A stretch of 64,000 nt of DNA from a virus. Each line of letters starts with the position of its first letter. The first letter of the stretch is position 1. The notes under the pieces are model-generated. The model saw only the letters and a program-made list of their open reading frames with translations. It was not told the DNA's origin and did not search any database. The translations under genes were made by a program, and so were the position numbers. Below, piece by piece: positions 31,264 through 50,652 of this stretch. Location: positions 1-64,000 of IMG/VR virus record IMGVR_UViG_3300029513_000230; one strand, written 5' to 3'.

Positions 31264-31647
31264 CTATCGAACGATCATCCAATCCGTAGCTAGCATATCC
31301 GTTTGAGATGCTAACCAGCCATTTACGATAGTATCATCAGCGGCTTTCATACACAAATAAGCCGTGAACTTGATCTTGTCCGTTTCCGAGTCACCATATT
31401 TATTAGCAACCCATTTCTTTACTGCATCAGGTAAGGATTTAACCTTATTCACGACCATGTCTGTAGACAAATAGTCTTCAGGACGCTGAAAGATAAACAT
31501 GCCTTTTCCATTCCATCCTTCACGACAAACCAACTCCCCTTTTTTGATAGCCTCTAAAGCTTCTCCAAATGTCATGTTTTTAGTTTTCATTTTATTTACG
31601 CTTACCTCTACAGCATTAGGTCTTGTTATTGTTAAAGTAAATTCCAC
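31264..31647 (-). CDS. DUF2829-family protein (Tad2-like)
   Basis: ...[29 protein letters not shown]...[21 protein letters not shown] matches the DUF2829 pattern (GW and W..sq.DllAeDW). Confidence 0.55.
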
Positions 31648-32042
31648 CCAGCTATAACGTCCGGCATTTCAGCCTCCCTACCATTCTCCACCTTGCTCAT
31701 CCCGCCCACGATCCGGATCATCTGCTCACGATCGTTGATGTTGATAGGATCATCAGCCGGGATACCAGCATAATCTGATACGGCCTTAATGTAAGCGTCC
31801 GTATCGTTCTCGTTTTCCGGTGCCCAGCGACCTATCATCTTGCGGATCGTGTCCAGCTTATAGTTCCGGTAATAGTTAGACAGGATCTTGAAGATCGCCC
31901 TGTAACCGTATGCCATCGATTTAAATTGCTTAAACGACTTGTCCTTGCTTGGGCGTATCTCACCTTGGAACAAGTCTCCGTTGATCCGGATGTTTCCCGG
32001 GTTGTTGTTCCGATACCCACGAGGTAAATTATTTTTCCCCAT
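31632..32042 (-). CDS. putative endolysin/peptidoglycan hydrolase
   Basis: [12 protein letters not shown] motif family seen in Bacteroidales phage lysins; adjacent to a holin. Confidence 0.45.
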
Positions 32043-32045
32043 ATT

Positions 32046-32522
32046 TTACTCTCCTTTCTTCTTTTTATTCATGGCATTGGATAAAGCGTTTGTCAAAGCG
32101 TCCTCCAAAACCTTTTGCGTTACAACCTTACCGATCATGTCGGCTGTCTTACTCGCCTGCCTCCTTTGTTTGGCGTCAGCCTTCTCCCAGATAGACCTAA
32201 CCTCCGTTATCAAGATAAATACGGTCACTATCGAGGATACGACCGGGACATTGGTCAAGAAAGGCAGATGGATAAATTCCCAGAACCGACACACGTAGCA
32301 AACCGAGTCTATCCCGCACGCTATACATACGCTACCAGCGTAAAGTATGAACTTACTGACCGTCCTACGCATGCCATACGAATTACGCTCCTCGCCCCTC
32401 AATTTAGCCTTGTAATAACCCGAGGCGAAATCCCACCCCATCGCCACCATAACGATGAACATCTCAAACACGACTACAGTCAGTAGCTCCCTCATACTGC
32501 AAATCATTTTAAAAAATTCCAT
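32046..32522 (-). CDS. holin-like membrane protein
   Basis: Three TM segments plus a charged C-terminal tail; immediately upstream of the lysin. Confidence 0.5.
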   Translation of the reverse strand: MEFFKMICSMRELLTVVVFEMFIVMVAMGWDFASGYYKAKLRGEERNSYGMRRTVSKFILYAGSVCIACGIDSVCYVCRFWEFIHLPFLTNVPVVSSIVTVFILITEVRSIWEKADAKQRRQASKTADMIGKVVTQKVLEDALTNALSNAMNKKKKGE

Positions 32523-32547
32523 TCTTCCGATCCTTTTTTTTATTTAG

Positions 32548-32940
32548 TTATAAAACCACTATGCTCTCCTCCTCTCTCGCCGCCTCCCACTCGGCGAAAT
32601 CGCTATCCACACGGTCTTTCAACGCCTTCCTCTCGTTAAGGAACGTCTTATAAGACTCCACGTATGACAAGTCCAGTATGCCTAGCTGGGCGGCGTTGTA
32701 GTCGTTCAGCTTCTTTTGCTCCACGTCCTTGTCCCATAGGGCGTTGATACAGGCCTCCAATATCTTGTTGGCCGTCAACGTGGGCCATACCCTGACCTCG
32801 TTGTAACTATAGGAGATCACGGGGGCCATATCGTCACCCATCTCCCTTGTCTCCTCTCTAACGTCCCACCGGTACAGGTAGGAACCGTCACCGTCCCGCT
32901 CTATTCTAGGCGGCATTGTGTCGCTCCATGATCGCTTCAT
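32548..32940 (-). CDS. hypothetical acidic protein
   Basis: ORF; start overlaps the RT stop. Confidence 0.4.
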   Translation of the reverse strand: MKRSWSDTMPPRIERDGDGSYLYRWDVREETREMGDDMAPVISYSYNEVRVWPTLTANKILEACINALWDKDVEQKKLNDYNAAQLGILDLSYVESYKTFLNERKALKDRVDSDFAEWEAAREEESIVVL

Positions 32941-34000
32941 AAAACTCTGGTTTTAAAATTTTCTTAGCTAAATGCTTGCTATCGCTATCATATATCCAGC
33001 CCAGCCAACCGGCTAGACCTGCCTTGTATTCCGTTAAGGATATATTCGGGACTTTATTCAATCTAGCCGCCGCACGACATAGATTTTGCTTAGTCCTCTT
33101 CCTTATCCGTATATGCTCCTTGTAAAATACGAAACCCACGAAATCTACACCACGGCCGCTTTTATCCGATCTTCTCTCAGCGATCTTAAATATCTGGTAA
33201 TTCCCTTTCAGCTCCAACTTCAACACGGCCAATCTATCGATAAGCCACGGAAGTAATACGTTTCTCAAGAAACACTTATCATGATGGAAAAAAGTCATGT
33301 CATCCGCGTATCTGATATAATGCCTTATATCTATAATCTCCTTTATCTCGTGATCCAGATAGGCGAGATAAAGATTCGCAAGATATTGGCTAAGATAGTT
33401 CCCGATCGGAACGCCGGGAGCGGAATCGATGATCTCATCCAACAACATAAGCAAGCGATCGTCCTTGATCTTCTTCCGAGCGATGCCTTTTAACACCTCA
33501 TGGTCTATTGACGGATAGAATTTGCGGATATCAACCTTGAGGCAATAGACGGATTCACGATCGGACAAAGCCCGTCTTGTCCTCTTATACGCCTCCGTTA
33601 TTCCTCTTCCCTTGATACATGATGTCGTATCAGCCGTGAACACGGAAACCCATATAGGTTCCATGACGTTCATTATGGCATGATGCAATATCCTGTCCGG
33701 ATAATAAGGGAGCTTGAAGATGATCCTTTCTTTTGGCTCATAGATGGTATCAGTCCGGTACTTGGAAGTCTTGAACGTGCCATCCAGCAGAGACTTTAGC
33801 AAACGGCTTAGATTACCTTCTTTGTCCTTGTCAAACAACCTTATGCCGTATGAATCCTTCTTTCCCCTTCGGGCTTTCATGTCCGCAAGTATCAAGTTGT
33901 CCATATTCGCTATCTTATCAAATAAATTCCCTGTTCTCTTCATTTTATTGTCATTAATTTGCTTTTTATCATAGGGAGTCTTCGGTTTCCCTACCAACAC
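32906..34000 (-). CDS. DGR reverse transcriptase
   Basis: RT motifs: N-terminal RTGNLFDKIANMDNLILADMKARRGKK; motif 4 IGNYLSQYLANLYL (DGR-specific SQ); catalytic YIRYADDMTFF; thumb DFVGFVF. Confidence 0.85.
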   Translation of the reverse strand: MLVGKPKTPYDKKQINDNKMKRTGNLFDKIANMDNLILADMKARRGKKDSYGIRLFDKDKEGNLSRLLKSLLDGTFKTSKYRTDTIYEPKERIIFKLPYYPDRILHHAIMNVMEPIWVSVFTADTTSCIKGRGITEAYKRTRRALSDRESVYCLKVDIRKFYPSIDHEVLKGIARKKIKDDRLLMLLDEIIDSAPGVPIGNYLSQYLANLYLAYLDHEIKEIIDIRHYIRYADDMTFFHHDKCFLRNVLLPWLIDRLAVLKLELKGNYQIFKIAERRSDKSGRGVDFVGFVFYKEHIRIRKRTKQNLCRAAARLNKVPNISLTEYKAGLAGWLGWIYDSDSKHLAKKILKPEFYEAIMERHNAA

Positions 34001-34080
34001 CCTTTATATGGGGAGACTTTTTTCGCCAAGAGGCGAGGCCACCATCCCTGTTTGTTATCTAAATATCTTTTCCCCCTCTC

Positions 34081-34198
34081 TAAAAGTATAGGCGTGAACC
34101 GATGTTACGATTCGCATCGGAAGGCGCATTATTCGTATTCACGTTAGCGAGGCCTGCATTCGACCTGTTGTCCGCGTTACCGCCAACCAGCACCACCT
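34081..34198 (-). repeat. DGR template repeat (TR)
   Basis: 118-bp noncoding copy of 34643-34760. 19 mismatches, all at + strand T (= A on the transcribed strand). Confidence 0.8.
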
Positions 34199-34221
34199 AG
34201 GGATGATCGACCCTCATTCCG

Positions 34222-34575
34222 TCATTCGAGATAATACCTGTTCCCGGAGGCTCGCATCGTCACTTTCCTAGGGAACTTGTCCATCTCCTTTATCTTACCA
34301 AGAACGTACTTGATCTCTTGGGAGTTCGTAAAGAATTTCTTGGCATCACTATCCTTATCCTCTAGATTCTCCTTGATCATGACAAGCGCCCTGTCTTTCC
34401 CGAACTTGGTGGACACGCCATCCATGTAATCAATTACCCAGAACGTGAGATTCGTCAACTTCTGTTGGGTGATCTCCGGACAATTAAAATGCCTTGAGTT
34501 CTTATCCCTTGGGATATTCAAGAACGACAAGCTGCCGTCATCTTTATTCTTTTCTTCTTCCATTTTTATCCTCAT
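34222..34575 (-). CDS. candidate DGR accessory variability determinant (Avd) by position
   Basis: 117-aa Lys-rich ORF located between target gene and TR, as in the BPP-1 mtd-avd-TR-brt layout. No sequence similarity to Avd is claimed. Confidence 0.35.
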   Translation of the reverse strand: MRIKMEEEKNKDDGSLSFLNIPRDKNSRHFNCPEITQQKLTNLTFWVIDYMDGVSTKFGKDRALVMIKENLEDKDSDAKKFFTNSQEIKYVLGKIKEMDKFPRKVTMRASGNRYYLE

Positions 34576-34614
34576 TAAACGTTATACAAAAAATTCCCGA
34601 CGTGATACGTGCGG

Positions 34615-36753
34615 CTACGCCGACGTTTTACGATATTCGGGGAAAAAGCAAAGGCGTGAACCGACGTCACGATCCGCAGCGGAAGGCGCAGAACCCGTAT
34701 ACACGTCAGCGAGGCCCGCATACGACCCGGTGTCCGCGCGACCGCCAACCAGCACCACCTGCATGCGGTTAGCCGATGTGTAGGTGTAGTAGTAGTCGCA
34801 CCAGTAGGTAGAACTACTACCGCCGATCTCCGTAGCTACGATATCACCATCCTCACCTAGGAGCATCTTCTTGGCATAACCATTGGTACGGCAGATGTTG
34901 CCTTTCTTGTTATAGCCTGTGTAAGATGTATCGCTGAAGTTTGACGGGTCATCGGTAGTCCATAATATGGATAATCCCGCATCGCCCGTGGTGACCTGTA
35001 TATTGGCCCCGTCGGTGTATTTCCAGATATGGCCGAACGGATTCTCTATGCCACGATACCTGTTAGCCATCAACGTGGCGTGAGTACCGCCGGAAGCGTT
35101 CTTCACGACATATGCCTTCTCTCCCGAGCCGTTCCCGAACTCGTTGGTATAGCCGCATGGGATAAGTGGATTGATCTTGTTGAAGTTAGTCCAATCCGTC
35201 ATTTGCGTTGGTCCCGGACCTAGGCCACCTTGGGCGAAACCGTTTGCGTCCTTCTGGGCGTTGAAAGGCTTCTGGCTGTCCAGCGTGGCGTACTCGACGG
35301 CGAATAGCCAGAACAGGGTCTTGTGGGCGTTGTAGGTGTACATCTCCCAACCGCTGCCACGTTTCCTTGCGGCTTGCCGGAATTGGTCTCGGGTGAGGTT
35401 GGTGACGGGACGGCCTAGCAAGGAACGGTAGGTTCCGTCCCATTCGGCGGTGTTGTCGCCGCCTCTTGTATCAGTAGAGTTTGTTTTATCCGACATCAAT
35501 AACCCTAAAGATCTAAGCATTTGCGCCTCACTTGAGCCTATATAGAATTTGCTTATATGCTTGTATCCGGGCAATGGAATCGAAGATAACATCATTTTAA
35601 ATTTAGTCCCAGTTATGTATATTCTATACCAATGATCGGGAATCTCTACCATTGACGCATAATCTTTAGACGCAAATGTCATCTTCCATGCCGTTGGTTC
35701 ATGATAATAATATACTCCTCCATTATTATCTAACACGACTCCTCTCATCCCGCTCTGCACCGGCAACTCCCTATGCAGTTGCATATTTCCAACACGCTTC
35801 CCGTCCGGGCTTGACGATGCCATGTCCCACTCTACACCATAGGCGTACCGCTCCTCGATGTCGGGGATGTCCTCCCAAGCGGGGGTCCACTCGGTGGAGA
35901 TGTCGCCGTACTCGAGCTTGATCTTGTGGATGGTGGAAGTTGATGTGCCAGTTTTAGGAGAACTAAATACAACCATATGTGTATTATCAGCTACTGCATC
36001 TCCGATATTAGTAATCCATTTAAAAGCCTTACTGGCCTTCCCATTCACAAAGTCAGTCTTACTGAACTGAACCATAGAACCTACTGCACCAGTAGAGTTA
36101 TATATAGTGAACATTTCCTTATCATCACCCAATTCTCCAAAAATAGTCAATGTTACTTGTGTTCCTTTAGATATCGGTTCAGTTAGCCAATAATCAGCGA
36201 TATTGTAATTCGAATTACTCACCTCCTTCCCTGATCCCAGCAACAGGTTCCTGCCGTACACGGGCAGCTTGCGGTACTTGCCATCAGCCATCAGAGACTT
36301 ATCCTTGTCCCCCTTGGTCTCCAGCGTTATCGACACGTCCGGATCGTCATTTTTTGCCTTGTCCGGCGTTATGGTTATCTGACCGTTAGACGGGGTGGAT
36401 GTGACAACGGGCTTTAACTTATCAACGTCCGTCCTTAGACCGGTGACCAGATTCCGGATATCCGTATCGTCGTAATGGTCACGCAAGTTAGGCGTGGTTA
36501 TGGTTCCCTCAGCGGAGGTTATCTCCAAGACGTATTCCGTATCCGTGTTAGTCTTTATCCTCACCTTGATGTCTTGCATCACCAATGGAAGCTCGGCGTA
36601 CGTATGGATACCGTCCGAGAACTTCATGTTTAAATTGCCGTTCGCCAACCGCTCGAAAAGCCATAGCGACGGCGGGTATATGGTGCTGTCAGCCGTCCAC
36701 TCGGCGGTGGACTGCTCTATCTGTTGGTATACGTAAGCTCCTCTCTTGCTCAT
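34615..36753 (-). CDS. DGR target protein, tail-fibre-like with C-terminal CLec-type variable region
   Basis: 712 aa; C-terminus ...RMQVVLVGGRADTGSYAGLADVYTGSAPSAADRDVGSRLCF carries the VR; lies in the tail-fibre module. Confidence 0.7.
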   Translation of the reverse strand: MSKRGAYVYQQIEQSTAEWTADSTIYPPSLWLFERLANGNLNMKFSDGIHTYAELPLVMQDIKVRIKTNTDTEYVLEITSAEGTITTPNLRDHYDDTDIRNLVTGLRTDVDKLKPVVTSTPSNGQITITPDKAKNDDPDVSITLETKGDKDKSLMADGKYRKLPVYGRNLLLGSGKEVSNSNYNIADYWLTEPISKGTQVTLTIFGELGDDKEMFTIYNSTGAVGSMVQFSKTDFVNGKASKAFKWITNIGDAVADNTHMVVFSSPKTGTSTSTIHKIKLEYGDISTEWTPAWEDIPDIEERYAYGVEWDMASSSPDGKRVGNMQLHRELPVQSGMRGVVLDNNGGVYYYHEPTAWKMTFASKDYASMVEIPDHWYRIYITGTKFKMMLSSIPLPGYKHISKFYIGSSEAQMLRSLGLLMSDKTNSTDTRGGDNTAEWDGTYRSLLGRPVTNLTRDQFRQAARKRGSGWEMYTYNAHKTLFWLFAVEYATLDSQKPFNAQKDANGFAQGGLGPGPTQMTDWTNFNKINPLIPCGYTNEFGNGSGEKAYVVKNASGGTHATLMANRYRGIENPFGHIWKYTDGANIQVTTGDAGLSILWTTDDPSNFSDTSYTGYNKKGNICRTNGYAKKMLLGEDGDIVATEIGGSSSTYWCDYYYTYTSANRMQVVLVGGRADTGSYAGLADVYTGSAPSAADRDVGSRLCFFPEYRKTSA
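34643..34760 (-). repeat. DGR variable repeat (VR) at 3' end of target gene
   Basis: Matches TR apart from 19 A-position substitutions; ends 26 nt before the stop codon. Confidence 0.8.
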
Positions 36754-38090
36754 GATAATATCCCTTTATCTATTATTGTTACTGATTCATTGTAGTAATT
36801 CGCCCCGGTCAAGTAGACGTTCCCCGGCAAGGCGGCACCGGAAGACTCCTCCCATATGGCCTTACCCTCCACTATGTCGTGGAGCTTGTAGAACGTAACG
36901 TCTCCGGGAGACTCCCTTAGATAGACCTCACCGCCTATAGGGTAGCTCTTGGTCTCGCCGCCCTCCTCGTAGGTCACGTCGTTCGCCCCCGGGACATGGT
37001 CGATCTCCCTTGTCTTGTATACGCCGGCCACCGCCCCGTCCTGTCCTTGCGGGATGGTAAGATCTAATTCCGCCAATGGTACCCCTTCCTCGGTCTCTCC
37101 CTTCTCGGTTATCGTGGCTTGGGCCGCCGTTCCCGGGAGACCGGTCGTCACCTTGCCGATCGATATCTTTGGGGAGAATCCCCTAGGGCCTCTCTGCAAC
37201 ACGAAGTTCATCCTGTATACGGGGTTGCCGGATGCGTCCGTGCCCCCGTCGGACAACGATACGGAAGGATACGTGCCCGCCGTTATGGTGCCTATGGAGA
37301 ATTGCGGGGTCTTCCCGGTGAAGCCTCTCATACCGGAAACGTCCACGATATAGTCGTAGCCCGTCGATGTCCTCAGATACAGCTTTCCGGTATCCTCCTC
37401 CTCCACGCTGCCCGTGTTGATGATGACGAACTTCCCCTCCGGGACGCTAGACTTGTCCGCCTCCATAGCCGAGACGGACTTATAGACCTTGTAGATCGTG
37501 AACGCCTCCGGTTTCAGTATCCTGTCCGTCTTGATATAGGCCCCGGTAGCGTAATCCCACGTGTAGACATGGAAGTCATCGCCGATATAGCCCGGGTGGT
37601 CAGACACCGACTTGGCGTTCTCAGCCGCCGTGTTCGCTTTCTCGGTTGCCGCGTCCGCCCTCTCCAAGGCGTGCCTCACGTCGTTCTCGAACTGGGTCTT
37701 CAAGGCGTTCACCTCGCTCACGATAGCGTTCATCCTCTCACGCACATCGGCGGCGGCTTCCGTGGCCGGCCTCTTCAAGTCGGCGAGCGGTATGAGGTTC
37801 TGCCACATCCCGTCCTCGTAACGCCACTGTATGTAATCTGCGGTGACCTGCAAGACGATCTGCTTCCCGTCAACGCCCCTCAACAAGGATATGGCCACAC
37901 GCACGAGATCATAAGCCGAGCCGGATTGCCTGAACACCGGCAAGGACGATATACCTTGCAGGCTATCGGCCTCCTCGTACTGCCCCGGGTCTTTCGACGT
38001 GGTCAGCAAGAGGTCGTTGACCGCCGACGCTATCTTCTGGATGTCCTCGGGGGTCACCTCGGTGCCCGATGATAGGATGATGCTTTCCAT
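36750..38090 (-). CDS. tail fibre/structural protein
   Basis: 446 aa, GC-rich; start overlaps the downstream target gene (ATGA). Confidence 0.5.
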   Translation of the reverse strand: MESIILSSGTEVTPEDIQKIASAVNDLLLTTSKDPGQYEEADSLQGISSLPVFRQSGSAYDLVRVAISLLRGVDGKQIVLQVTADYIQWRYEDGMWQNLIPLADLKRPATEAAADVRERMNAIVSEVNALKTQFENDVRHALERADAATEKANTAAENAKSVSDHPGYIGDDFHVYTWDYATGAYIKTDRILKPEAFTIYKVYKSVSAMEADKSSVPEGKFVIINTGSVEEEDTGKLYLRTSTGYDYIVDVSGMRGFTGKTPQFSIGTITAGTYPSVSLSDGGTDASGNPVYRMNFVLQRGPRGFSPKISIGKVTTGLPGTAAQATITEKGETEEGVPLAELDLTIPQGQDGAVAGVYKTREIDHVPGANDVTYEEGGETKSYPIGGEVYLRESPGDVTFYKLHDIVEGKAIWEESSGAALPGNVYLTGANYYNESVTIIDKGILS

Positions 38091-38091
38091 A

Positions 38092-38379
38092 TTACTCCAC
38101 CGCTTGACTGTTCAACATCCCGTAAGTGTCGTTAAAGAATTGAGTGGCGATGGCCACCGCATCCTCCTTGCTCGTTATCACGCCGGGCTTGTCCACCGAC
38201 ATGAAGAATTGCCCGTTACGCTCGTAGGCCAGAGATCCCACACGTACCCCGTCCTTGATAAAAGAGCCTGTTATCCGGTCTATCCGCTCATCGGTCTTGA
38301 CCGAGGCGGAATACTGTATCTTGATACCGGCTACTTCCGAGTAGCCGTTTATTGTCCTAGTATCGCTCGTTATCTCCAT
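38092..38379 (-). CDS. hypothetical tail-associated protein
   Basis: ORF only. Confidence 0.4.
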   Translation of the reverse strand: MEITSDTRTINGYSEVAGIKIQYSASVKTDERIDRITGSFIKDGVRVGSLAYERNGQFFMSVDKPGVITSKEDAVAIATQFFNDTYGMLNSQAVE

Positions 38380-38383
38380 GGTC

Positions 38384-38674
38384 TCATACGTTTAAAATGT
38401 TAAAGATCTGACCGAAGGCCCCTGCGGTCAACGTCTTGTCGCAACATTTCTTTATCAATACTGATTCCTTGTCGCTGATATCTAATTCACCCTCGGCGGC
38501 GTTGATCCGTGTCATGAGGTTGTAAGCCTCGAACTTCTCGTCTTGATTCATGTCATCGCCGGACGAGTAAAGCCTAGCGCATACTATATCCTTGATGATT
38601 TGTACTTTTCCGAACTCGTCCTTCATGTCTTCCCCCTTGAATGTCTTTAGGGGCTTGTTGAAATTTACTTTCAT
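38384..38674 (-). CDS. hypothetical tail-associated protein
   Basis: ORF only. Confidence 0.4.
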   Translation of the reverse strand: MKVNFNKPLKTFKGEDMKDEFGKVQIIKDIVCARLYSSGDDMNQDEKFEAYNLMTRINAAEGELDISDKESVLIKKCCDKTLTAGAFGQIFNILNV

Positions 38675-38700
38675 GATTTACTGTATTTTAATTGTTAATA

Positions 38701-41700
38701 TTATCCCAAAGATATTTTAAGCATATTCCCATCCCGCCATATAGCTCCTTTCACCTTTGGATCTACTGTTGACATATACGGAAATGTCATTAATCCCGAT
38801 GGGGAGATATTAAACAAGACATTTCCTCCATTATCGTAAGATCCAAATCCGAAATATCCCATGGAAACTCGATAATTGGAGACACCTGAAGATGCGTTTC
38901 TCATATAAATATGGAATGCGGGTAATGACTGATATCCAGTCATATCATTAAACAAGATCTCTCCTGTTAAGGAGTTTTTATCATTAATCATACGAATACT
39001 TCTCGTCGATGGGTCTATTATGATTCTATTCCCATTATCTGAGGTTTGTATTTTGCCTATTATACTTAAATCTCCAGATGTATTCCAAGAGATATTCTTA
39101 TTAGCTAGGAATCCTGACCCATCATGCCGTAAGACAATCTTAGCTTTATTATTCACGGCTTGTCCATATGTACCTCCAGTCCAAAAACATACGTTATTTA
39201 CATCTGGTGAAATGCCTCCTTTCACGGAGAGATTATCAATAGAACCGGAACCAACCTCTATCCTACGATTCAAACTCATGCCATCGTTACTAAACCGATA
39301 GAAAGCACTCGTTATATCGGAAGCTTTATTTACATCAAAGACTGTGTCATTAATAGTATCACGCAAGTTACTATCAAGCATTGATATAGTTACCACACCA
39401 ACAAGGTCAATCCTCTCCGCCTTGATCGTGGTGGTGGTTGCCGTCTGGTTGATATACGATATGATATTATCGCCGTTCTCCAAGCTCTTGGCGGCGAACA
39501 ACGTATTTCCCTGCGTAGTGTTGATCCATCCCGCCGTGTCTATCTCATTCCTTATATTGTCCACCCTAGTGGAGATACCCGTGATTTGTCCCGCCTGTAC
39601 CGACAAGTCCGACTCCAGCTTCACCTTCACTTGGTTTGTCGCCGTATCGGTATAGTCCTTCAACTTGTCCTGTATATACTTGTTCGCCGTCTCCACGGCG
39701 CTCTCGAACGAGGACATGGCAGTGTTGAAGGCCGCAAATTTCTTATCCACGTCGGCCGTCTCCGAGGCCGTGGTCTTTCCGTCCGCTATGGCCGTGTTGA
39801 TACTGCTTATCAAGGCGCTTATAGACGAGTCCAAGACATCCTTGGCCGATTTAAGACCGGTCTTGGCCGCACCGTCAAGGTACGTGTTGGAATACAACTT
39901 CGTATAAGTGGCGGTCACGCTGTCCTTGGACGTGTTCACCGTATTCAGGTACTTCTCTATGGCCTTGGCCTCGGCCTCCGTTATGATACCGTCGGCGAAA
40001 GCGCCGTCAACGTATGTGTTAAGGCTTGTCACGGACTGGTTAGCGTTATCGGCGGCGGTCTGGGCGGCCTTGGCGGCGTTATTGGCCAGCGTTATGGCCT
40101 CTTGCGCCGTGGCGAATTGCTCCTCCGTCACACGGGCGGATATCTCCTCGGCCATGACCGACAACTCAGCGTCATACTTGGTATATATCGCACCTGTCTC
40201 CGAGTCCACGTACTCCTTAGTGGCCAGCAACTTTATATATTCCTCCGTCTGCAAGATCCGCGTCTCAAGCTTTATCACGGCATCGGCCAATCGGTCGTTG
40301 AACAACGACACTCCATATATCAATATCTCGCCGGTGAATCCGATCCTGAAATCCCCGGTACCGTCCCATTTGCCGGCTTTTGACAGCTTGACGTACTCGT
40401 CGGACGGATCGAGGGTCAAGGAGTCGTACAACTCCTGCCCGGCGAAACCCACCGTCAAAACACCTCGTCTCATGACCTTGTAAAACAAGGAGAAGGAGAA
40501 CGTATGACCCTCATCGCTCTCTTCCAACTCAGGAACTTTCATCACGTCGTTACGCTGGAATATATACGTGTCCTTGATGCGAAGCACGTTCCTGTTGCCA
40601 TCCCTATAGATATCGGAAACCTTCCTCTTGTCCGAGTAAAAAGAACCGCCCACCCACAGGAGATTGCCGCTCACGTTGATGAAATGGATGTCGTTGGCCT
40701 CCGCCCAATAATTCGTGTCCTTCCCGAACGTGGAATTGACAAGTATATTCCCGGATTCCAGAGACATGTCGTTCCTCACCCCCTCAATCTCGCTCCTCAG
40801 CTCCCCGTTCATCACGTAGAACTGCTGCTCCACGGTCATGCCGTTATCGAGGTATATGGACGAGTTCTCTATATAGATCCCGTTCAGGTAAGCCCCGTAA
40901 CCCTTCAGCTGGGTCCCGTTCTTGGTACGGATCATGGAGAGGTTGCCTAGCTGGGCCTTCAGCGTGTCTTGCGTGGAAACGCCCGTGATACCGTCATATA
41001 CGGCAATGAACGGCGCTCCTTGATCCGCCGATGTCAGGTAGATAAGGCCCTGCCTAGTGGTATCCCTGTCGTTACCCCATCGCATGGCGAAATCCCCAGC
41101 CTCTGGCTCGCCGGTACCCTCTATCAGCGGGTAGGCCACGTCGAAATAGTCGGATGAGATACCGATACAGCGACCGAATAGATATTTAGTGGACGTGATA
41201 CCGTTCCTTCTCTGTATCCTCACTCCGTCACCTTCCCTGAGGTTCATCAGCATGAGACCGTCCATGTCGTCCATGTAGCATCTCCAACGATCGGACAGCC
41301 TCTCGACCCTCCCTATCTTGTTGATATCGGACACGATCTGGTTGCCGCCCAACCCGTATATCTGGGAATACACTATCTCGTAGGCCGTGAAGGTCTTCCT
41401 AGCGAATATGTTGTCAAAGGTTCCCGTGGCCGTGGGGATGTCTATCTCCGTGCCCCAGCCGGTGAAGCCGGGGGCGAACGATATGGAGCCGATCTTGTTG
41501 CCAGCGTATATGTCGGAACGCACCTTCAACGCCTCCATGATACCGGAACCGTCGGCCTTGATCTCCCAGCCCTTACCGTCCATGCCGTCAAGAAAGATGG
41601 AGGAGCCTATCTTCTTGTCGAAGATGATCTCCCCCACCGCCTCGTCGTTGATATCCTTGCGAAGATACCTCTTATCCAAGTCCTCAAGATCGAGTATGTC

Positions 41701-42132
41701 ACAGGTATCCAAGCCCGTGACATGGCCGAAGTCATCTAGCAATACGGACGCAATACCTTTCTTCTTCGTCTTATTTATACTCTCTTGAGAAGAGGTATCC
41801 TTATGGGAAATCGTATATATATTATTGATATCCGATTTTATCTCTATACCCGGACCTTGTGCCAAGGAGAAATCGCCGCCTCCCCCCTCACCTCCGCTTC
41901 CGGAACCTTGACCTCCTATCCTTCGCACCTTATTATCACTGGCAAGGATGAACAAGGCGGGGTCTCCGGCGTAATCATTCACGAACAACTCGCCCCTCGT
42001 CAATCCGGAGAGGTGCCATTCCTTGGTCCCGTCATTTATAGCGACGGGAGGAGGAGCTGCTTGCAGCTTACCCTCGGACATCACCGTATCCGACCCGTAC
42101 CATATATGTTTGGTCAATTTCTTTTTGCTCAT
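38701..42132 (-). CDS. large distal tail/host-specificity protein (1143 aa)
   Basis: Gly-rich linker GQGSGSGGEGGGGD; size and position typical of central tail-fibre or host-specificity proteins. Confidence 0.55.
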   Translation of the reverse strand: MSKKKLTKHIWYGSDTVMSEGKLQAAPPPVAINDGTKEWHLSGLTRGELFVNDYAGDPALFILASDNKVRRIGGQGSGSGGEGGGGDFSLAQGPGIEIKSDINNIYTISHKDTSSQESINKTKKKGIASVLLDDFGHVTGLDTCDILDLEDLDKRYLRKDINDEAVGEIIFDKKIGSSIFLDGMDGKGWEIKADGSGIMEALKVRSDIYAGNKIGSISFAPGFTGWGTEIDIPTATGTFDNIFARKTFTAYEIVYSQIYGLGGNQIVSDINKIGRVERLSDRWRCYMDDMDGLMLMNLREGDGVRIQRRNGITSTKYLFGRCIGISSDYFDVAYPLIEGTGEPEAGDFAMRWGNDRDTTRQGLIYLTSADQGAPFIAVYDGITGVSTQDTLKAQLGNLSMIRTKNGTQLKGYGAYLNGIYIENSSIYLDNGMTVEQQFYVMNGELRSEIEGVRNDMSLESGNILVNSTFGKDTNYWAEANDIHFINVSGNLLWVGGSFYSDKRKVSDIYRDGNRNVLRIKDTYIFQRNDVMKVPELEESDEGHTFSFSLFYKVMRRGVLTVGFAGQELYDSLTLDPSDEYVKLSKAGKWDGTGDFRIGFTGEILIYGVSLFNDRLADAVIKLETRILQTEEYIKLLATKEYVDSETGAIYTKYDAELSVMAEEISARVTEEQFATAQEAITLANNAAKAAQTAADNANQSVTSLNTYVDGAFADGIITEAEAKAIEKYLNTVNTSKDSVTATYTKLYSNTYLDGAAKTGLKSAKDVLDSSISALISSINTAIADGKTTASETADVDKKFAAFNTAMSSFESAVETANKYIQDKLKDYTDTATNQVKVKLESDLSVQAGQITGISTRVDNIRNEIDTAGWINTTQGNTLFAAKSLENGDNIISYINQTATTTTIKAERIDLVGVVTISMLDSNLRDTINDTVFDVNKASDITSAFYRFSNDGMSLNRRIEVGSGSIDNLSVKGGISPDVNNVCFWTGGTYGQAVNNKAKIVLRHDGSGFLANKNISWNTSGDLSIIGKIQTSDNGNRIIIDPSTRSIRMINDKNSLTGEILFNDMTGYQSLPAFHIYMRNASSGVSNYRVSMGYFGFGSYDNGGNVLFNISPSGLMTFPYMSTVDPKVKGAIWRDGNMLKISLG

Positions 42133-43019
42133 AACGAATCCAAGTTTGATTGATTGACAAAGGCCCCCACGGAATCATCATACACCAGAACCTGCCCGTC
42201 CTTGGCGTTTGCCACGTTCACGCTTATGGAACCCGTGACCCAAGATCCGTCCGACTGTTCCGTGAACCCGTTAAAGGAGATATTCTCCGCTCTCTCAACG
42301 TTAAACGTATAATCAAACAACGGGTATCTCTCGGCTATCACTTGCCTCTCGGGTACGCTGGACTCGCTCCGGACATACCTAACGCCGTTTATCCTCACCT
42401 CGGACAGACAGAATATGTTATTGATCAAGCGGGCCATCTCGAAAGGTACCCCCTCGTTATCCCCTATCGTGAGCGTGTCCACCTGATACGGTACGGCGTA
42501 AAGCTCTATGATCTCTTGCCCCTGTGTCCTGAACTGCTCGTTGCTAACGTTAAGGGAATGCCCATCCGACTTGAACCCTCCCTCTATCCATAGCTTGAAA
42601 GTCCTTTGATTGTTTCCAACCTCAAATACCGCCCCGAACGAGGTGATATTATCCCTGTTGGTATAGGACACCTCCGTCAGCCCCTCCAATTCCCCGTTAT
42701 CGCAAAACCGGAAGGGGAGACTGCTTATCTGCCCCTCACTCCCGATTATGGAAGCCCTATAAAGGCTATTCCCTCTTGGAACGATAAACTCCAGAAGCTT
42801 ATTCGAGTCGTTGATCTCATAGGATATGGGGGATATGACGAAGCTATCGTTGGCGCAAAGGTCGAACAACCTCATAGACAAAGTGGTGGAAGGGGATACT
42901 ACGCATTGCACGGTTATATTCTCGGCATTAGAGAAGCGTTGTATATACTCACGCTCCATCTCGATGCCGTTATAGCCCACGTCAAAAAGCAATGGTGATA
43001 TCTTGCTCACGTTTATCAT
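42129..43019 (-). CDS. tail protein
   Basis: 296-aa ORF, translationally coupled to the downstream gene. Confidence 0.45.
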   Translation of the reverse strand: MINVSKISPLLFDVGYNGIEMEREYIQRFSNAENITVQCVVSPSTTLSMRLFDLCANDSFVISPISYEINDSNKLLEFIVPRGNSLYRASIIGSEGQISSLPFRFCDNGELEGLTEVSYTNRDNITSFGAVFEVGNNQRTFKLWIEGGFKSDGHSLNVSNEQFRTQGQEIIELYAVPYQVDTLTIGDNEGVPFEMARLINNIFCLSEVRINGVRYVRSESSVPERQVIAERYPLFDYTFNVERAENISFNGFTEQSDGSWVTGSISVNVANAKDGQVLVYDDSVGAFVNQSNLDSL

Positions 43020-43029
43020 ACGCCTATAA

Positions 43030-43130
43030 ACGCCAAAAGAGCCATACCCCGCAGGATACGACTCCCGCCGGGTATGGCTCTTAGGCTCTAATTTCTTTTT
43101 TGTTATGTCCTACAAATATAGGGGATAAGG
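43030..43130 (-). promoter_or_regulatory. repeat family, copy A (TATATTTG box - AGAGCC-NN-AGAGCC - hairpin - T-run)
   Basis: Same ~90-nt architecture as copies at 61728-61816 and 51990-52075; partial similarity at 45118-45195. Confidence 0.55.
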
Positions 43131-43149
43131 ATCAATTGTCAAAACAAAT

Positions 43150-45108
43150 TCATGTAATTTTAGACAATATCAGCGAATAGGATGCCGTTTGGTATTTCCC
43201 TATCTTCTCCGTTATCTCGCTAACCCATCCCTCGTACGATCTCCCTGCGTACGAGAACGATAATTTGCCCCTGTAATTACCCGGGAACGGGGATAACCCC
43301 GGGGTCTCCAAGGACACCTTATCAATCCTAATCCTCCGGTCGTTAACCGGCAGGGATATAGGAAGGGTCTCCGATACGCCTCCTATCGATATTGAGGAGT
43401 TTCCGTCCGAGGCCGTGAAAGACAGGTAATCCGTGCATATCCCGAGCCTTTCCTTATTGACGAGAAGCATATTTCTCGGCGAGTAGGAGGCGTTAAAGAT
43501 AGTGTCGGGGAACAATACTCCCGTAACGGCATATATAGCTCCCCCATTCTCTTCTCTTACCAGAACTAACCTATCCCCATCTTTCCTAGCGTGGACAATA
43601 AATATGTCATTGTCGGAATCCGTATCCTTCGATTCCTCGTCACGCTCGTTAGCGAGAAACTCCAATCCGTAGCAATCTGCCCTATACGGGCTTATCAATG
43701 ACAATATGTTGTCCTTTATGTCCAATCCCGTGCTGAAACTGCTCTTGAAGTGAAACTCGTCACGCCCGTTTATCTCATCATAGTCCTGCTTGTCGAATCC
43801 AATTTCAACCCCAGAGTATATCAACGACTCATCCACGGATAGCTCCATATTGCTCACGTGATCCAATTCTTTCGTCTCATTGACGAAGAAATCATTCATA
43901 TGCCGGAAACGCACGCTATTATCCAGTATCTCGTAATCATACCCAAGCAACGCCTTGGCGAAATCACAGAACTTGGAGAAGGACGTATGGACCTTCGCGT
44001 CCTTTATTCCTCTCACGCTCTCAGCGGCCATCATCCAAGGTATAGGCATGGAACCGGAGACGATATCGCCGGACAATGACACGCCCATCCTTGATAATAA
44101 CGAGGATAATAGTTTTTTAGGGGAGAAAGCATCTATATTTACGGGCTTGTTGCGAGCCGAGTAATCGATATATAAATCGTAGTCCCTTGATATCTTGATG
44201 ATCTCATCGATATCCTCCCCTATAGACGTTACGCACAATATGTAGGCGATCAGCCTGTCACCATCCCTCATAGCGTAGGAAAGGCTCTCATCTACAGATG
44301 TAACGCCCGCTGACGATCCATCTTTGCTTAGCAGTATGGCTTTGTCGGACTTCAGCTTATTGTCGGCAGACATATGCCTTATGTGCAACGATGTCACCGC
44401 CGTGGTCAGCAAGTCTACGACCATTCGTATCCTTAGATTTATCTCGATCTTATCGACAAGGCACAAGGCGAAATAACCTGTCTTCCCGGCGTTATCGTAC
44501 GGGATATCCATACCTACGTCGTAGACCTCCATCACTCCCTTTACAGGCGTGCTTATCTCCCCGTAAGCCAAAGGTAATAACGTCTCCCTGCTCTGAAGCC
44601 TTAAAGCCATGAACCGATCGTAATCGGGCATCAACTCGTTCTCGAAGTTTGGGGTTATATACATCGTTGACTTGTTAAGTAGCTTTATCCTGTCATAATA
44701 CAATGTATCCTCCTTTAACTCCGACACCGGGATATCGTATACCTGCGACTTATTGGCGTTGATGATGGACGCTACGCTATCGTCAATGGCGTTTATGGAT
44801 ATCGTATACCCGTCGCTCTGGTACGTGGAGAAATCGAGCTTGCAACGAAACTTCTCGTTATACCCCCAGCTATCGTTCAACACGCCTATCACCAATATGG
44901 CCGAGGCTTTCGTATAATTGGATAGGTACTCGGCCTCAAGAAGGTCGTATGCCCCCTTCACGAACTCGAACTTGTTGGAGAAGGATCGAACGACACCGCC
45001 AATATCCTTCCTCTTAGCCGATATCTCCACGTCCTCCCAGTTCTTTAGGTGATCGGTCACGTCATACCTCTTCCCCCCTATCAATAATACCGCTTTTATC
45101 ATACGCAT
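43150..45108 (-). CDS. distal tail/baseplate-like structural protein (652 aa)
   Basis: Large ORF in the tail module. Confidence 0.45.
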   Translation of the reverse strand: MRMIKAVLLIGGKRYDVTDHLKNWEDVEISAKRKDIGGVVRSFSNKFEFVKGAYDLLEAEYLSNYTKASAILVIGVLNDSWGYNEKFRCKLDFSTYQSDGYTISINAIDDSVASIINANKSQVYDIPVSELKEDTLYYDRIKLLNKSTMYITPNFENELMPDYDRFMALRLQSRETLLPLAYGEISTPVKGVMEVYDVGMDIPYDNAGKTGYFALCLVDKIEINLRIRMVVDLLTTAVTSLHIRHMSADNKLKSDKAILLSKDGSSAGVTSVDESLSYAMRDGDRLIAYILCVTSIGEDIDEIIKISRDYDLYIDYSARNKPVNIDAFSPKKLLSSLLSRMGVSLSGDIVSGSMPIPWMMAAESVRGIKDAKVHTSFSKFCDFAKALLGYDYEILDNSVRFRHMNDFFVNETKELDHVSNMELSVDESLIYSGVEIGFDKQDYDEINGRDEFHFKSSFSTGLDIKDNILSLISPYRADCYGLEFLANERDEESKDTDSDNDIFIVHARKDGDRLVLVREENGGAIYAVTGVLFPDTIFNASYSPRNMLLVNKERLGICTDYLSFTASDGNSSISIGGVSETLPISLPVNDRRIRIDKVSLETPGLSPFPGNYRGKLSFSYAGRSYEGWVSEITEKIGKYQTASYSLILSKIT

Positions 45109-48161: not shown

Positions 48162-49166
48162 ATGAGGAAAATGCTATTTTTTGTCCTAGCGGCAATATTT
48201 TTGCTAGGATGTGAGAAAGAATTTGTCGATATCCCACCTAAAGCTAGTATAACTGAAGACAATGAGCCTATTTTAACTTTCTTGGAGGAAGAAGGACTAA
48301 GGCCATCCCAATCTGATAAAATAAGCGATATATTGGGAGATATAGAAGAGGAAGGCTATAGGCTGTTATTAGGCAGGAGGTCTGATAATGCTTGGTTTTC
48401 AAAATTAGATCCATCAGGCAATGAAATTTGTTGTTTTGAATTACCTCCTTTAAAAAAATGGAAATATTCTCATTATAATATGAACTCTGTTCTATTTAAA
48501 TCCAAAGACCATATTTTTGTTAGAGGATGGTATTCCAATCAAAATGATCCATCTATAATGGGTTATGATTATGATGAGATAGTATCTATTGTTGATTTTA
48601 ACAAAGGTGTCGCAACAGACCATCTGGATATTGTTTCAAACGATACGCAAAACAATGACTATAGATATACACTCATGGAGTCTAATTATAGGACTCTAGT
48701 ACTTAGATCGACTTCGTCTTTTAAGAATCAACATCTATACGTAGTTGGCTCCGAAGGTAAAATATTATATCATAGAGACTATGATAATAAGATCGAAGGG
48801 CCTTATTTAGAAAATGGGGTCATATTTATTGATGACGAAATAGCATGTCCAATTATAGAGAAAGGTATAAACATGTATTCTTCTATAGCCAAATTACCAA
48901 TATTTAATTTAAGGACATGGACATTGATAAAAAAATTAGATTCTGAAAATGGATTGATCCCAAAAGGGGATAGATACAACGAGCCTAATATTTCATATAA
49001 GACAGACACGGTATATCTTGAGAAAAACAATATAATATACGCATATGGAGAATACAAAAACAAAAAAGATCCAATATCAGACACCAATATTGAGACATTG
49101 CTTGATAAATATTATTATGAAATAAATATTGGATCTTATAATGTTGAAGGCCCATTCAAGTATTAA
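48162..49166 (+). CDS. lipoprotein (accessory 'moron' gene)
   Basis: Signal peptide + lipobox LLGCEKE; ATG at 48162 preceded by the same TAAATCAAGTCATGA leader as the next gene. Confidence 0.55.
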   Translation: MRKMLFFVLAAIFLLGCEKEFVDIPPKASITEDNEPILTFLEEEGLRPSQSDKISDILGDIEEEGYRLLLGRRSDNAWFSKLDPSGNEICCFELPPLKKWKYSHYNMNSVLFKSKDHIFVRGWYSNQNDPSIMGYDYDEIVSIVDFNKGVATDHLDIVSNDTQNNDYRYTLMESNYRTLVLRSTSSFKNQHLYVVGSEGKILYHRDYDNKIEGPYLENGVIFIDDEIACPIIEKGINMYSSIAKLPIFNLRTWTLIKKLDSENGLIPKGDRYNEPNISYKTDTVYLEKNNIIYAYGEYKNKKDPISDTNIETLLDKYYYEINIGSYNVEGPFKY

Positions 49167-49191
49167 AACAATTCAAATCATAAATCAAGTC

Positions 49192-50652
49192 ATGAAAAAA
49201 GTTTTACCTATTTTTCTTCTATTAATGCTATTTTGTTCTTGCAGTAATAAAGACGATTATACCATAACTTCTATTTCTATTGATAAAACAAAGCTAGAAT
49301 TGAAGATTGGTGAAAGTTATGATTTCCAAATGTCCCATTTCCCTTCGGAGGCTCCTTCTCCCCGATATAAATGGGTTACATCTAAATATTTTCCGATAAA
49401 TGGCCCCGAAGATGGCTATGAAATAGCATCTATTGATCAAAACGGAACTATAAAAGCTTTAAAAGAAGGTGTTACAATTGTAAGCGTAGAGACAATTGAT
49501 GTTTTTGATCCCGAAAAAGGTTATCCTTTTTTTCAGTCATGCAAAGTAACCATAAAACCCATAGTAGGTGAATCCATAACATTATCCAAGACAGATCTTG
49601 ATATGAAGCCCGGAGAAACGGCTTCGTTGACGTATACCATATCACCGGATAACGCCACAAGTAAAGATGTCATATGGAAAACCAGTGACCCTAAAGTAGC
49701 TTCGATATCCTATGGTGGCTTCACATCCAATGCCGAGATTACAGCAAAAGGCCAAGGTGAGGCAACAATCACCGTAAGCCTAAAGGATAACCCCAAGGTG
49801 TCTGCTACTTGCAAGGTCAAGGTAGGAGCGGCAAAGCTTGAAAGTATCAGCTTTGAGGAAAAAGAAAAGACAATCATGCAAGGTGAATCAACCAAGTTAA
49901 ATCTTGTGTTTACGCCTTCTTATGCTACTAATAAAAACGTACAATGGACATCCTCTAATAAGGATATAGCGGTCGTTGATAAGGAAGGTAACGTTACTGG
50001 AGTTCATTTCGGGGAATGTACGATAACCGCCAAAGCCGAGGATGGAGGATTTGAGACGGCTTGTAAGGTCATAGTAAAGCCTATTCCGGTAGAAAACATA
50101 TCTTTTCCCTCACGTTACTATGATATCGAGATAGGAGGGGAAAAACAATTAATTGTAAATTTTACTCCGGAGAATGCGGGAAACCGTAATCTTACATGGT
50201 CTTCCTCTAATCCTATAGCCGTGTCTATTGACAAGACCGGAAAGGTGAAAGGGAATACGTCTGGAAGTTCAACAATCACAGCTACCAGCGAAGATGGTGG
50301 GCATAAGGCATCCGTAGAAATATATGTAGTTGAAATAGATCGTTTGATGAACGTGTACTTCCCTTCTTCATCCGTCGTTATTCTCAATGGATATTACACG
50401 GGAAGTATATCATGCGCCATCCGAAATAATAGTTCTCATGCCGTAAACCTAAGCAAATTCTACGTCGTTGAATCTAATACCTATAAGACTGTATTAGAGA
50501 CTACGGATATGTCTATATTAGGAGAATTAAAGCCCGGAGAAACAAAAACGCTTAATGCTAGATTAAACTCGGTGTATGAGCCAATATTCCGTTGGGAGTT
50601 TGAATATAATGGAAATTCATATTCTACGTGGACTAAATATGGAGATAAATAA
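49192..50652 (+). CDS. surface lipoprotein with tandem bacterial Ig-like (Big_2) domains
   Basis: Lipobox LFCSCSN; 4-5 repeats of ~85-aa Big_2-like units (e.g. ...GEATITVSLKDNPKVSATCKVKV). Confidence 0.65.
   Translation: MKKVLPIFLLLMLFCSCSNKDDYTITSISIDKTKLELKIGESYDFQMSHFPSEAPSPRYKWVTSKYFPINGPEDGYEIASIDQNGTIKALKEGVTIVSVETIDVFDPEKGYPFFQSCKVTIKPIVGESITLSKTDLDMKPGETASLTYTISPDNATSKDVIWKTSDPKVASISYGGFTSNAEITAKGQGEATITVSLKDNPKVSATCKVKVGAAKLESISFEEKEKTIMQGESTKLNLVFTPSYATNKNVQWTSSNKDIAVVDKEGNVTGVHFGECTITAKAEDGGFETACKVIVKPIPVENISFPSRYYDIEIGGEKQLIVNFTPENAGNRNLTWSSSNPIAVSIDKTGKVKGNTSGSSTITATSEDGGHKASVEIYVVEIDRLMNVYFPSSSVVILNGYYTGSISCAIRNNSSHAVNLSKFYVVESNTYKTVLETTDMSILGELKPGETKTLNARLNSVYEPIFRWEFEYNGNSYSTWTKYGDK

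What the first reader, a model, noticed from the sequence alone, without database searches (positions are those of the whole stretch)
34615..38090. DGR target is a tail-fibre-like protein with a C-terminal CLec-type VR, consistent with programmable host tropism
The variable codons fall in the final ~40 residues (...VLVGGRADTGSYAGLADVYTGSAPSAADRDVGSRLCF). This resembles the VxxGG...R...GFR-like scaffold of C-type-lectin-fold DGR targets. The gene sits among the distal tail and fibre genes (36750-45108), so diversification would alter receptor binding. The fibre block 34.6-42 kb is GC-richer than the rest of the phage, with many spurious Arg-rich antisense ORFs, which suggests a horizontally exchanged module.
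Basis: partly seen in the sequence, partly recalled or inferred. Interest (0 to 1): 0.6.

Follow-up and report, generated by a model that had tools for sequence, protein, structure and literature searches.

The report
Phage tail protein diversified by a retroelement
A Bacteroides-type gut phage rewrites about 13 codons at the tip of a tail-module binding protein with a mutagenic reverse transcriptase, and dozens of natural variants show the system is active; this is a well-known kind of system, so the finding is correct but ordinary.

Summary
ORF 34615-36753 (-, 712 aa) is the target of a complete DGR: VR 34644-34760, a 117-aa accessory ORF, TR 34082-34198 and RT 32906-34000. TR and VR differ at 18 positions, all TR adenines.

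- **Activity:** 118 near-identical metagenomic proteins vary almost only at the TR-adenine codons between 672 and 697. Among 45 unique VR DNAs, 18 of 28 recovered TRs are identical to the window's and the rest differ at 1-2 nt.
- **Position:** The gene is the last in the tail module, just before the lysis genes.

- The span covers two genes. The 446-aa ORF 36750-38090 is separate.
- The scaffold motif is GSRLCF (CLec3 class), not GFR.
- GC enrichment is patchy. Horizontal exchange is better shown by a 91.5%-identical copy of the C-terminal module, with an orphan VR, in crAss-like phage cr50_1.
- "Tail fibre" rests on gene context only.

TaqVP-like, prophage-encoded Bacteroides DGR targets are already described, so this is a new member of a known kind.

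Side observation: the accessory is not Avd. It is a basic, OB-like protein, and its homologue is fused to the Hankyphage RT.

The parts
34615..36753 (-). DGR target gene (712 aa), last gene of the tail module. Its ATG overlaps the stop of the upstream 446-aa gene.
   Evidence: ORF list and translation. phrog_5302 'tail protein' E 4e-103 over residues 201-706. 118 near-identical natural variants.
34618..35883 (-). Conserved C-terminal module (residues 291-712): a beta-rich N-terminal part plus an FGE-type C-type-lectin fold carrying the VR.
35884..36753 (-). N-terminal 290 residues of the target: lineage-specific region, presumed virion-attachment part. Fold unknown.
   Evidence: No Pfam hit. 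Residues 159-297 weakly match PHROG structural/adsorption proteins. Close homologues swap this region (P0121-P0123).
34644..34760 (-). Variable repeat (VR), codons 665-703.
34665..34740 (-). Mutagenised tract of the VR (repeat positions 20-95): 24 TR-adenine positions, 9 AAY codons and 4 single-A variable codons.
   Evidence: Per-codon entropy in 118 proteins. Per-base spectrum in 45 unique VR DNAs.
34644..34657 (-). 3' end of the VR with fixed TR/VR differences (CCTTTGC versus TR CCTATAC): candidate IMH. The TR counterpart (IMH*) is at 34082-34095.
   Evidence: Positions 109 and 111 are T and G in 45/45 VRs. Position 103 is mostly G. Codons 701/702 are invariant in 118 proteins. Function inferred by analogy with BPP-1.
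34596..34641 (-). Possible imperfect hairpin just downstream of the VR. Weak evidence.
   Evidence: DNA fold -12.1 kcal/mol, z -1.5, 17 of 200 shuffles as good. Not significant.
34222..34575 (-). Accessory ORF in the avd position (117 aa; likely start at Met5, 34563). Basic, predicted OB-like beta-barrel, not Avd.
34082..34198 (-). Template repeat (TR), intergenic.
   Evidence: Identical in 18 of 28 recovered TRs; the others differ at 1-2 nt.
33944..34081 (-). 138-nt TR-RT spacer (if the RT starts at Met20).
   Evidence: Sequence. Homologue alignments start at residue 20 and gene callers give 345 aa. A role in priming is inferred by analogy with BPP-1 only.
32906..34000 (-). DGR reverse transcriptase (364-aa ORF from GTG; probably 345 aa from ATG 33943). 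Contains IGNYLSQ and YADD motifs.
   Evidence: PF00078 E 8e-13. phrog_1423 E 2e-104. Motifs read from the translation.
36750..38090 (-). Separate upstream 446-aa tail-module gene, included in the finding's span but not part of the target. Most GC-rich gene of the window.
   Evidence: GC 57.6%, GC3 76.5%. Weak PHROG 'minor tail protein' hits. Local similarity to crAss-like tail-fibre or hypothetical proteins.

Best explanation
This is an active diversity-generating retroelement (DGR) of a temperate Bacteroides-type siphovirus-like phage. Its target is the last gene of the tail module.

Proposed mechanism:
1. The intergenic TR is transcribed.
2. The RT copies it into cDNA and misincorporates opposite template adenines.
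3. [quoted passage not shown] The replaced tract runs up to a 3' boundary marked by fixed TR/VR differences (IMH-like).

The result is randomisation of nine AAY codons and four single-A codons between residues 672 and 697. That gives about 1e13 possible peptides on an otherwise invariant scaffold (GG-A--GS-AGLA-V----APS-A-R--GSRLCF). The scaffold lies at the C-terminal edge of an FGE-type C-type-lectin fold most like TaqVP.

The protein is most likely the receptor-binding protein at the tail tip, so diversification would shift adsorption specificity.

Shown here: cassette anatomy, adenine specificity, a near-invariant TR against variable VRs in natural populations, the predicted fold, and the position in the tail module.

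Inferred: virion location, receptor binding, tropism switching, IMH function, and the role of the non-Avd accessory protein.
For: - **Cassette:** the order is target-VR-accessory-TR-RT. All 18 TR/VR mismatches are at TR adenines. The RT has PF00078 and phrog_1423 hits and the IGNYLSQ/YADD motifs.
- **Population evidence, proteins:** 118 proteins 97-100% identical to the target have 2.5-3.2 bits of entropy at the nine AAY codons and 1.1-2.0 bits at four single-A codons. Almost nothing varies elsewhere.
- **Population evidence, DNA:** 45 unique VR DNAs show all four bases at TR-A positions 20-95. Of 28 recovered TRs, 18 are identical to the window's and the rest differ at 1-2 nt.
- **Indirect support for surface exposure:** the variable residues fall in loops and at alternating strand positions of a confidently modelled region. 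I/L/V/F make up 3.2% of residues at AAY codons against 25% if unselected. T occupies 4.9% of second codon positions but 28% of first positions (tallied). The same columns are hypervariable across 50 diverse homologues (3.1 versus 1.6 bits).
- **Context:** the gene is the last of the tail module and precedes holin/endolysin. Homologous modules in crAss-like, Porphyromonas and Bacteroides phages are annotated as tail proteins. The class is described in the literature as TaqVP-like, prophage-encoded Bacteroides variable proteins proposed to be tail-fibre receptor binders (bioRxiv 10.1101/2024.11.15.621889).
Against: - There is no direct evidence that the protein is in the virion or forms a fibre. 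The N-terminal 290 residues have no recognised domain.
- There is no sequence-level membership in Pfam FGE-sulfatase or other CLec models, and no PDB sequence hit even with a profile. The fold assignment therefore rests on a predicted structure.
- The canonical Avd is absent.
- The hairpin after the VR is not statistically supported.
- Two TR adenines in CAGG context (positions 32 and 43, the second at a silent site) are G in 45/45 and 44/45 VRs. Simple random A-to-N mutagenesis plus protein-level selection does not explain this.
Confidence: 0.85

Rival explanations
1. The diversified protein is a virion-borne adhesin for non-host ligands such as mucin or other gut glycans, rather than the host receptor-binding protein. 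Diversification would then tune phage retention in the gut, not host range.
For: C-type-lectin folds bind many ligand types. Nothing here identifies the ligand. The window also carries an Ig-domain protein (49129-50652), a type often proposed to bind mucus. The N-terminal region is uncharacterised.
Against: The gene sits where siphovirus receptor-binding proteins normally lie: last in the tail module and coupled to upstream tail genes. The only experimentally studied phage DGR (BPP-1 Mtd) and the Hankyphage target are described as tail-fibre host-recognition proteins (papers read). The module is exchanged between phages of Bacteroidales hosts, as expected for a host-recognition cassette.
Confidence: 0.08
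2. The target is not a structural protein at all. It would be a lysogen-expressed or intracellular binding protein, for example a superinfection-exclusion or defence/counter-defence factor, as proposed for the second DGR target of Quimby-like phages.
For: Non-structural phage DGR targets exist (PMC8008677). The gene borders the lysis and accessory region, which includes a Tad2-like gene.
Against: It is on the same strand as the tail genes, and its ATG overlaps the stop of the upstream 446-aa tail-module gene (36750-38090), which has only weak 'minor tail protein' and tail-fibre similarities. The family is labelled as tail protein. By my reading, the N-terminus has no signal peptide or lipobox. 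The same module ends long multi-domain proteins of 900-1280 aa.
Confidence: 0.05
3. The VR diversity is not produced by retrohoming in this phage today. It would be standing allelic variation or recombination between related phages, with the DGR a relic.
For: No time-series or single-strain data were analysed here. cr50_1 carries a frozen VR without the matching TR, which shows that such relics exist.
Against: Differences among 45 VRs fall almost exclusively at TR-adenine positions, while the TR is near-invariant in 28 genomes. The RT ORF is intact with its catalytic YADD motif. Flanking sequence of the 118 variants is 97-100% identical, so the VR changes much faster than its surroundings.
Confidence: 0.03

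Closest known systems
TaqVP, the Thermus aquaticus prophage DGR variable protein (PDB 5VF4), and 'domain group 2' Bacteroides DGR variable proteins (bioRxiv 10.1101/2024.11.15.621889)
   Different: There is no detectable sequence homology. The module here is about 410 aa and sits behind a 290-aa phage-specific N-terminal region. The host phylum is different.
Bordetella phage BPP-1 Mtd / avd / TR / brt cassette
   Different: The accessory is not Avd. It is predicted to be a beta-barrel, not a four-helix bundle. No Mtd-type N-terminal domains were detected. The VR scaffold is of the CLec3 type (GSRLCF).
Hankyphage (Bacteroides phage p00) DGR
   Same: Both are temperate gut Bacteroides phages with an active DGR on a tail protein (PMC12135933). 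The RTs are related (31% identity). The accessory domain is shared (37% identity, E 4e-14).
   Different: In Hankyphage the accessory-like domain is the C-terminal extension of the RT (residues 324-421), whereas here it is a separate ORF upstream of the TR. The Hankyphage target is very large (a feature spanning record positions 31489-38226) and only weakly similar (26%).
crAss-like phage tail proteins with DGRs (cr50_1 gp044, cr111_1, crAssphage LMMB tail-collar fibre protein; PMC7290462)
   Same: They share the same about 410-aa C-terminal module (27-79% aa identity) and the CLec3-like VR, and they lack Avd.
   Different: The virion type (Crassvirales) and N-terminal regions differ. cr50_1 gp044 carries a VR derived from this window's TR but has no such TR itself. 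LMMB-type VRs lack the SRLC residues.

Membership tests
Diversity-generating retroelement (DGR) | TR/VR near-repeat whose mismatches are confined to TR adenines | tested here: met
   117 nt, 18 of 18 mismatches at TR A. In four further genomes, 73 of 75 mismatches are at TR A.
Diversity-generating retroelement (DGR) | RT of the DGR type next to the TR ([I/L/V]GxxxSQ motif and YxDD box; the motif definition is from established knowledge) | tested here: met
   IGNYLSQ and YADD read in the translation. PF00078. phrog_1423 E 2e-104.
Diversity-generating retroelement (DGR) | TR conserved while the VR varies among closely related genomes (evidence of activity) | tested here: met
   45 unique VRs. 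18 of 28 TRs are identical and the rest differ at 1-2 nt. Entropy is confined to TR-A codons in 118 proteins.
Diversity-generating retroelement (DGR) | IMH at the VR 3' end with a non-identical IMH* in the TR | tested here: inconclusive
   Fixed differences at repeat positions 109 and 111 in 45/45 VRs mark a non-transferred 3' end. Function was not tested. The downstream hairpin is not significant.
Diversity-generating retroelement (DGR) | Avd accessory protein (basic four-helix bundle). Present in about 74% of DGRs, so not obligatory (PMC5758913) | tested here: not met
   No Pfam or NCBIfam Avd hit. The predicted fold is beta-rich. A different basic accessory occupies the slot.
C-type-lectin-fold DGR variable proteins (Mtd / TvpA / TaqVP type, FGE-like subclass) | FGE-type CLec fold | tested here: met
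C-type-lectin-fold DGR variable proteins (Mtd / TvpA / TaqVP type, FGE-like subclass) | Variable residues solvent-exposed and forming the binding face | tested here: inconclusive
   Coordinates are not returned, so no accessibility was computed. Indirect support: loop or alternating-strand positions, I/L/V/F at 3.2% versus 25% expected, and second-position T at 4.9% versus first-position T at 28%.
C-type-lectin-fold DGR variable proteins (Mtd / TvpA / TaqVP type, FGE-like subclass) | Sequence membership in Pfam FGE-sulfatase or related CLec models | tested here: not met
   No Pfam family even at E <= 5. No PDB sequence hit with a 50-sequence profile.
CLec3 VR class / Avd-less 'lineage 3' DGRs (Wu et al. 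2018, PMC5758913) | VR ending in the SRLC motif, no avd, Bacteroidetes/phage context | tested here: met
   The VR ends in GSRLCF. The SRLC feature of CLec3/lineage 3 is as quoted in PMC7290462. Lineage 3 lacks avd. Placement on the RT phylogeny was not tested.
Phage tail fibre / receptor-binding protein | Encoded in the tail module, distal to the tape measure and tail-tip genes | tested here: met
   PHROG annotation of neighbours. Holin/endolysin lie downstream.
Phage tail fibre / receptor-binding protein | Recognisable fibre or anchor domains (coiled coil, beta-helix, Mtd_N-type or collar domains) | tested here: not met
   No Pfam hit in residues 1-290. Only weak PHROG matches at 159-297. Long homologues are also uninformative.
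Phage tail fibre / receptor-binding protein | Present in the virion and mediates adsorption | not testable with these tools
   Needs virion proteomics, cryo-EM and adsorption assays.
OB-fold nucleic-acid-binding proteins (for the 117-aa accessory) | Five-stranded barrel with a helix between strands 3 and 4, and structural similarity to SSB-type OB folds | tested here: inconclusive

The most novel reading that the evidence does not exclude
The 117-aa basic, OB-like protein in the avd slot would be an unclassified DGR accessory factor. It would replace Avd in the Avd-less Bacteroidota-phage DGR lineage, either free-standing (as here and in many prophages) or fused to the RT C-terminus (Hankyphage). 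It may be linked to a context-specific behaviour of the RT: TR adenines in CAGG are read as G in 45/45 and 44/45 VRs, including at a silent site.
Probability: 0.4. Interest if true: 0.6.

Novelty: new member of a known kind. Interest (0 to 1): 0.3.

Why it matters
As a DGR target, this is one more example of a described class: prophage-encoded, TaqVP-like CLec variable proteins of gut Bacteroides phages. Its practical value is as a very well-sampled natural experiment. Thousands of near-identical copies exist in public metagenomes, which gives a per-position picture of what the retroelement writes and what selection keeps.

The by-products are more interesting than the finding itself:
- A conserved non-Avd accessory protein whose domain is fused to the RT in Hankyphage. 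This bears on how Avd-less DGRs work.
- A crassvirus tail protein carrying a frozen VR written by this phage's TR. This is direct evidence that already-diversified receptor-binding modules move between unrelated gut phage lineages.

Tried and rejected
- **Sequence-level domain searches:** Pfam and NCBIfam gave nothing for the target, its halves or the 446-aa gene, even at E <= 5.
- **PDB sequence searches:** a single-sequence search and a 50-sequence profile search both returned no hits.
- **Domains in homologues:** Pfam scans of 50 short and 8 long homologues, meant to learn what N-terminal domains accompany the module, returned essentially nothing.
- **Host identification:** the scan of GTDB species genomes found only distant relatives (41-51% identity) in Tannerellaceae, Prolixibacteraceae, Salinivirgaceae and a Ruminococcaceae-labelled MAG. 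The host species remains inferred from 92-95% nucleotide matches to Bacteroides fragilis phage BF1-TP2.
- **Hairpin after the VR:** z = -1.5, not significant.
- **Second VR in the window:** none found.
- **GC or k-mer block as proof of transfer:** only 34-38 kb is compositionally atypical (tetranucleotide r 0.56 against 0.7-0.93 elsewhere). 38-42 kb is unremarkable. I rejected this as stand-alone evidence.
- **Tentaclins (PMC10743442):** considered and rejected as the family. They have an N-terminal CLec plus Ig domains, a different topology.
- **CH1 accessory class of Wu et al.:** rejected for the 117-aa ORF. CH1 proteins are 160-169 aa and acidic, whereas this one is about 110 aa and basic.
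- **Avd:** rejected on the predicted fold.
- **Mtd_N-like N-terminus:** residues about 15-57 of the target reminded me of an Mtd_N-type domain, but Pfam gave no hit. It stays an untested lead.
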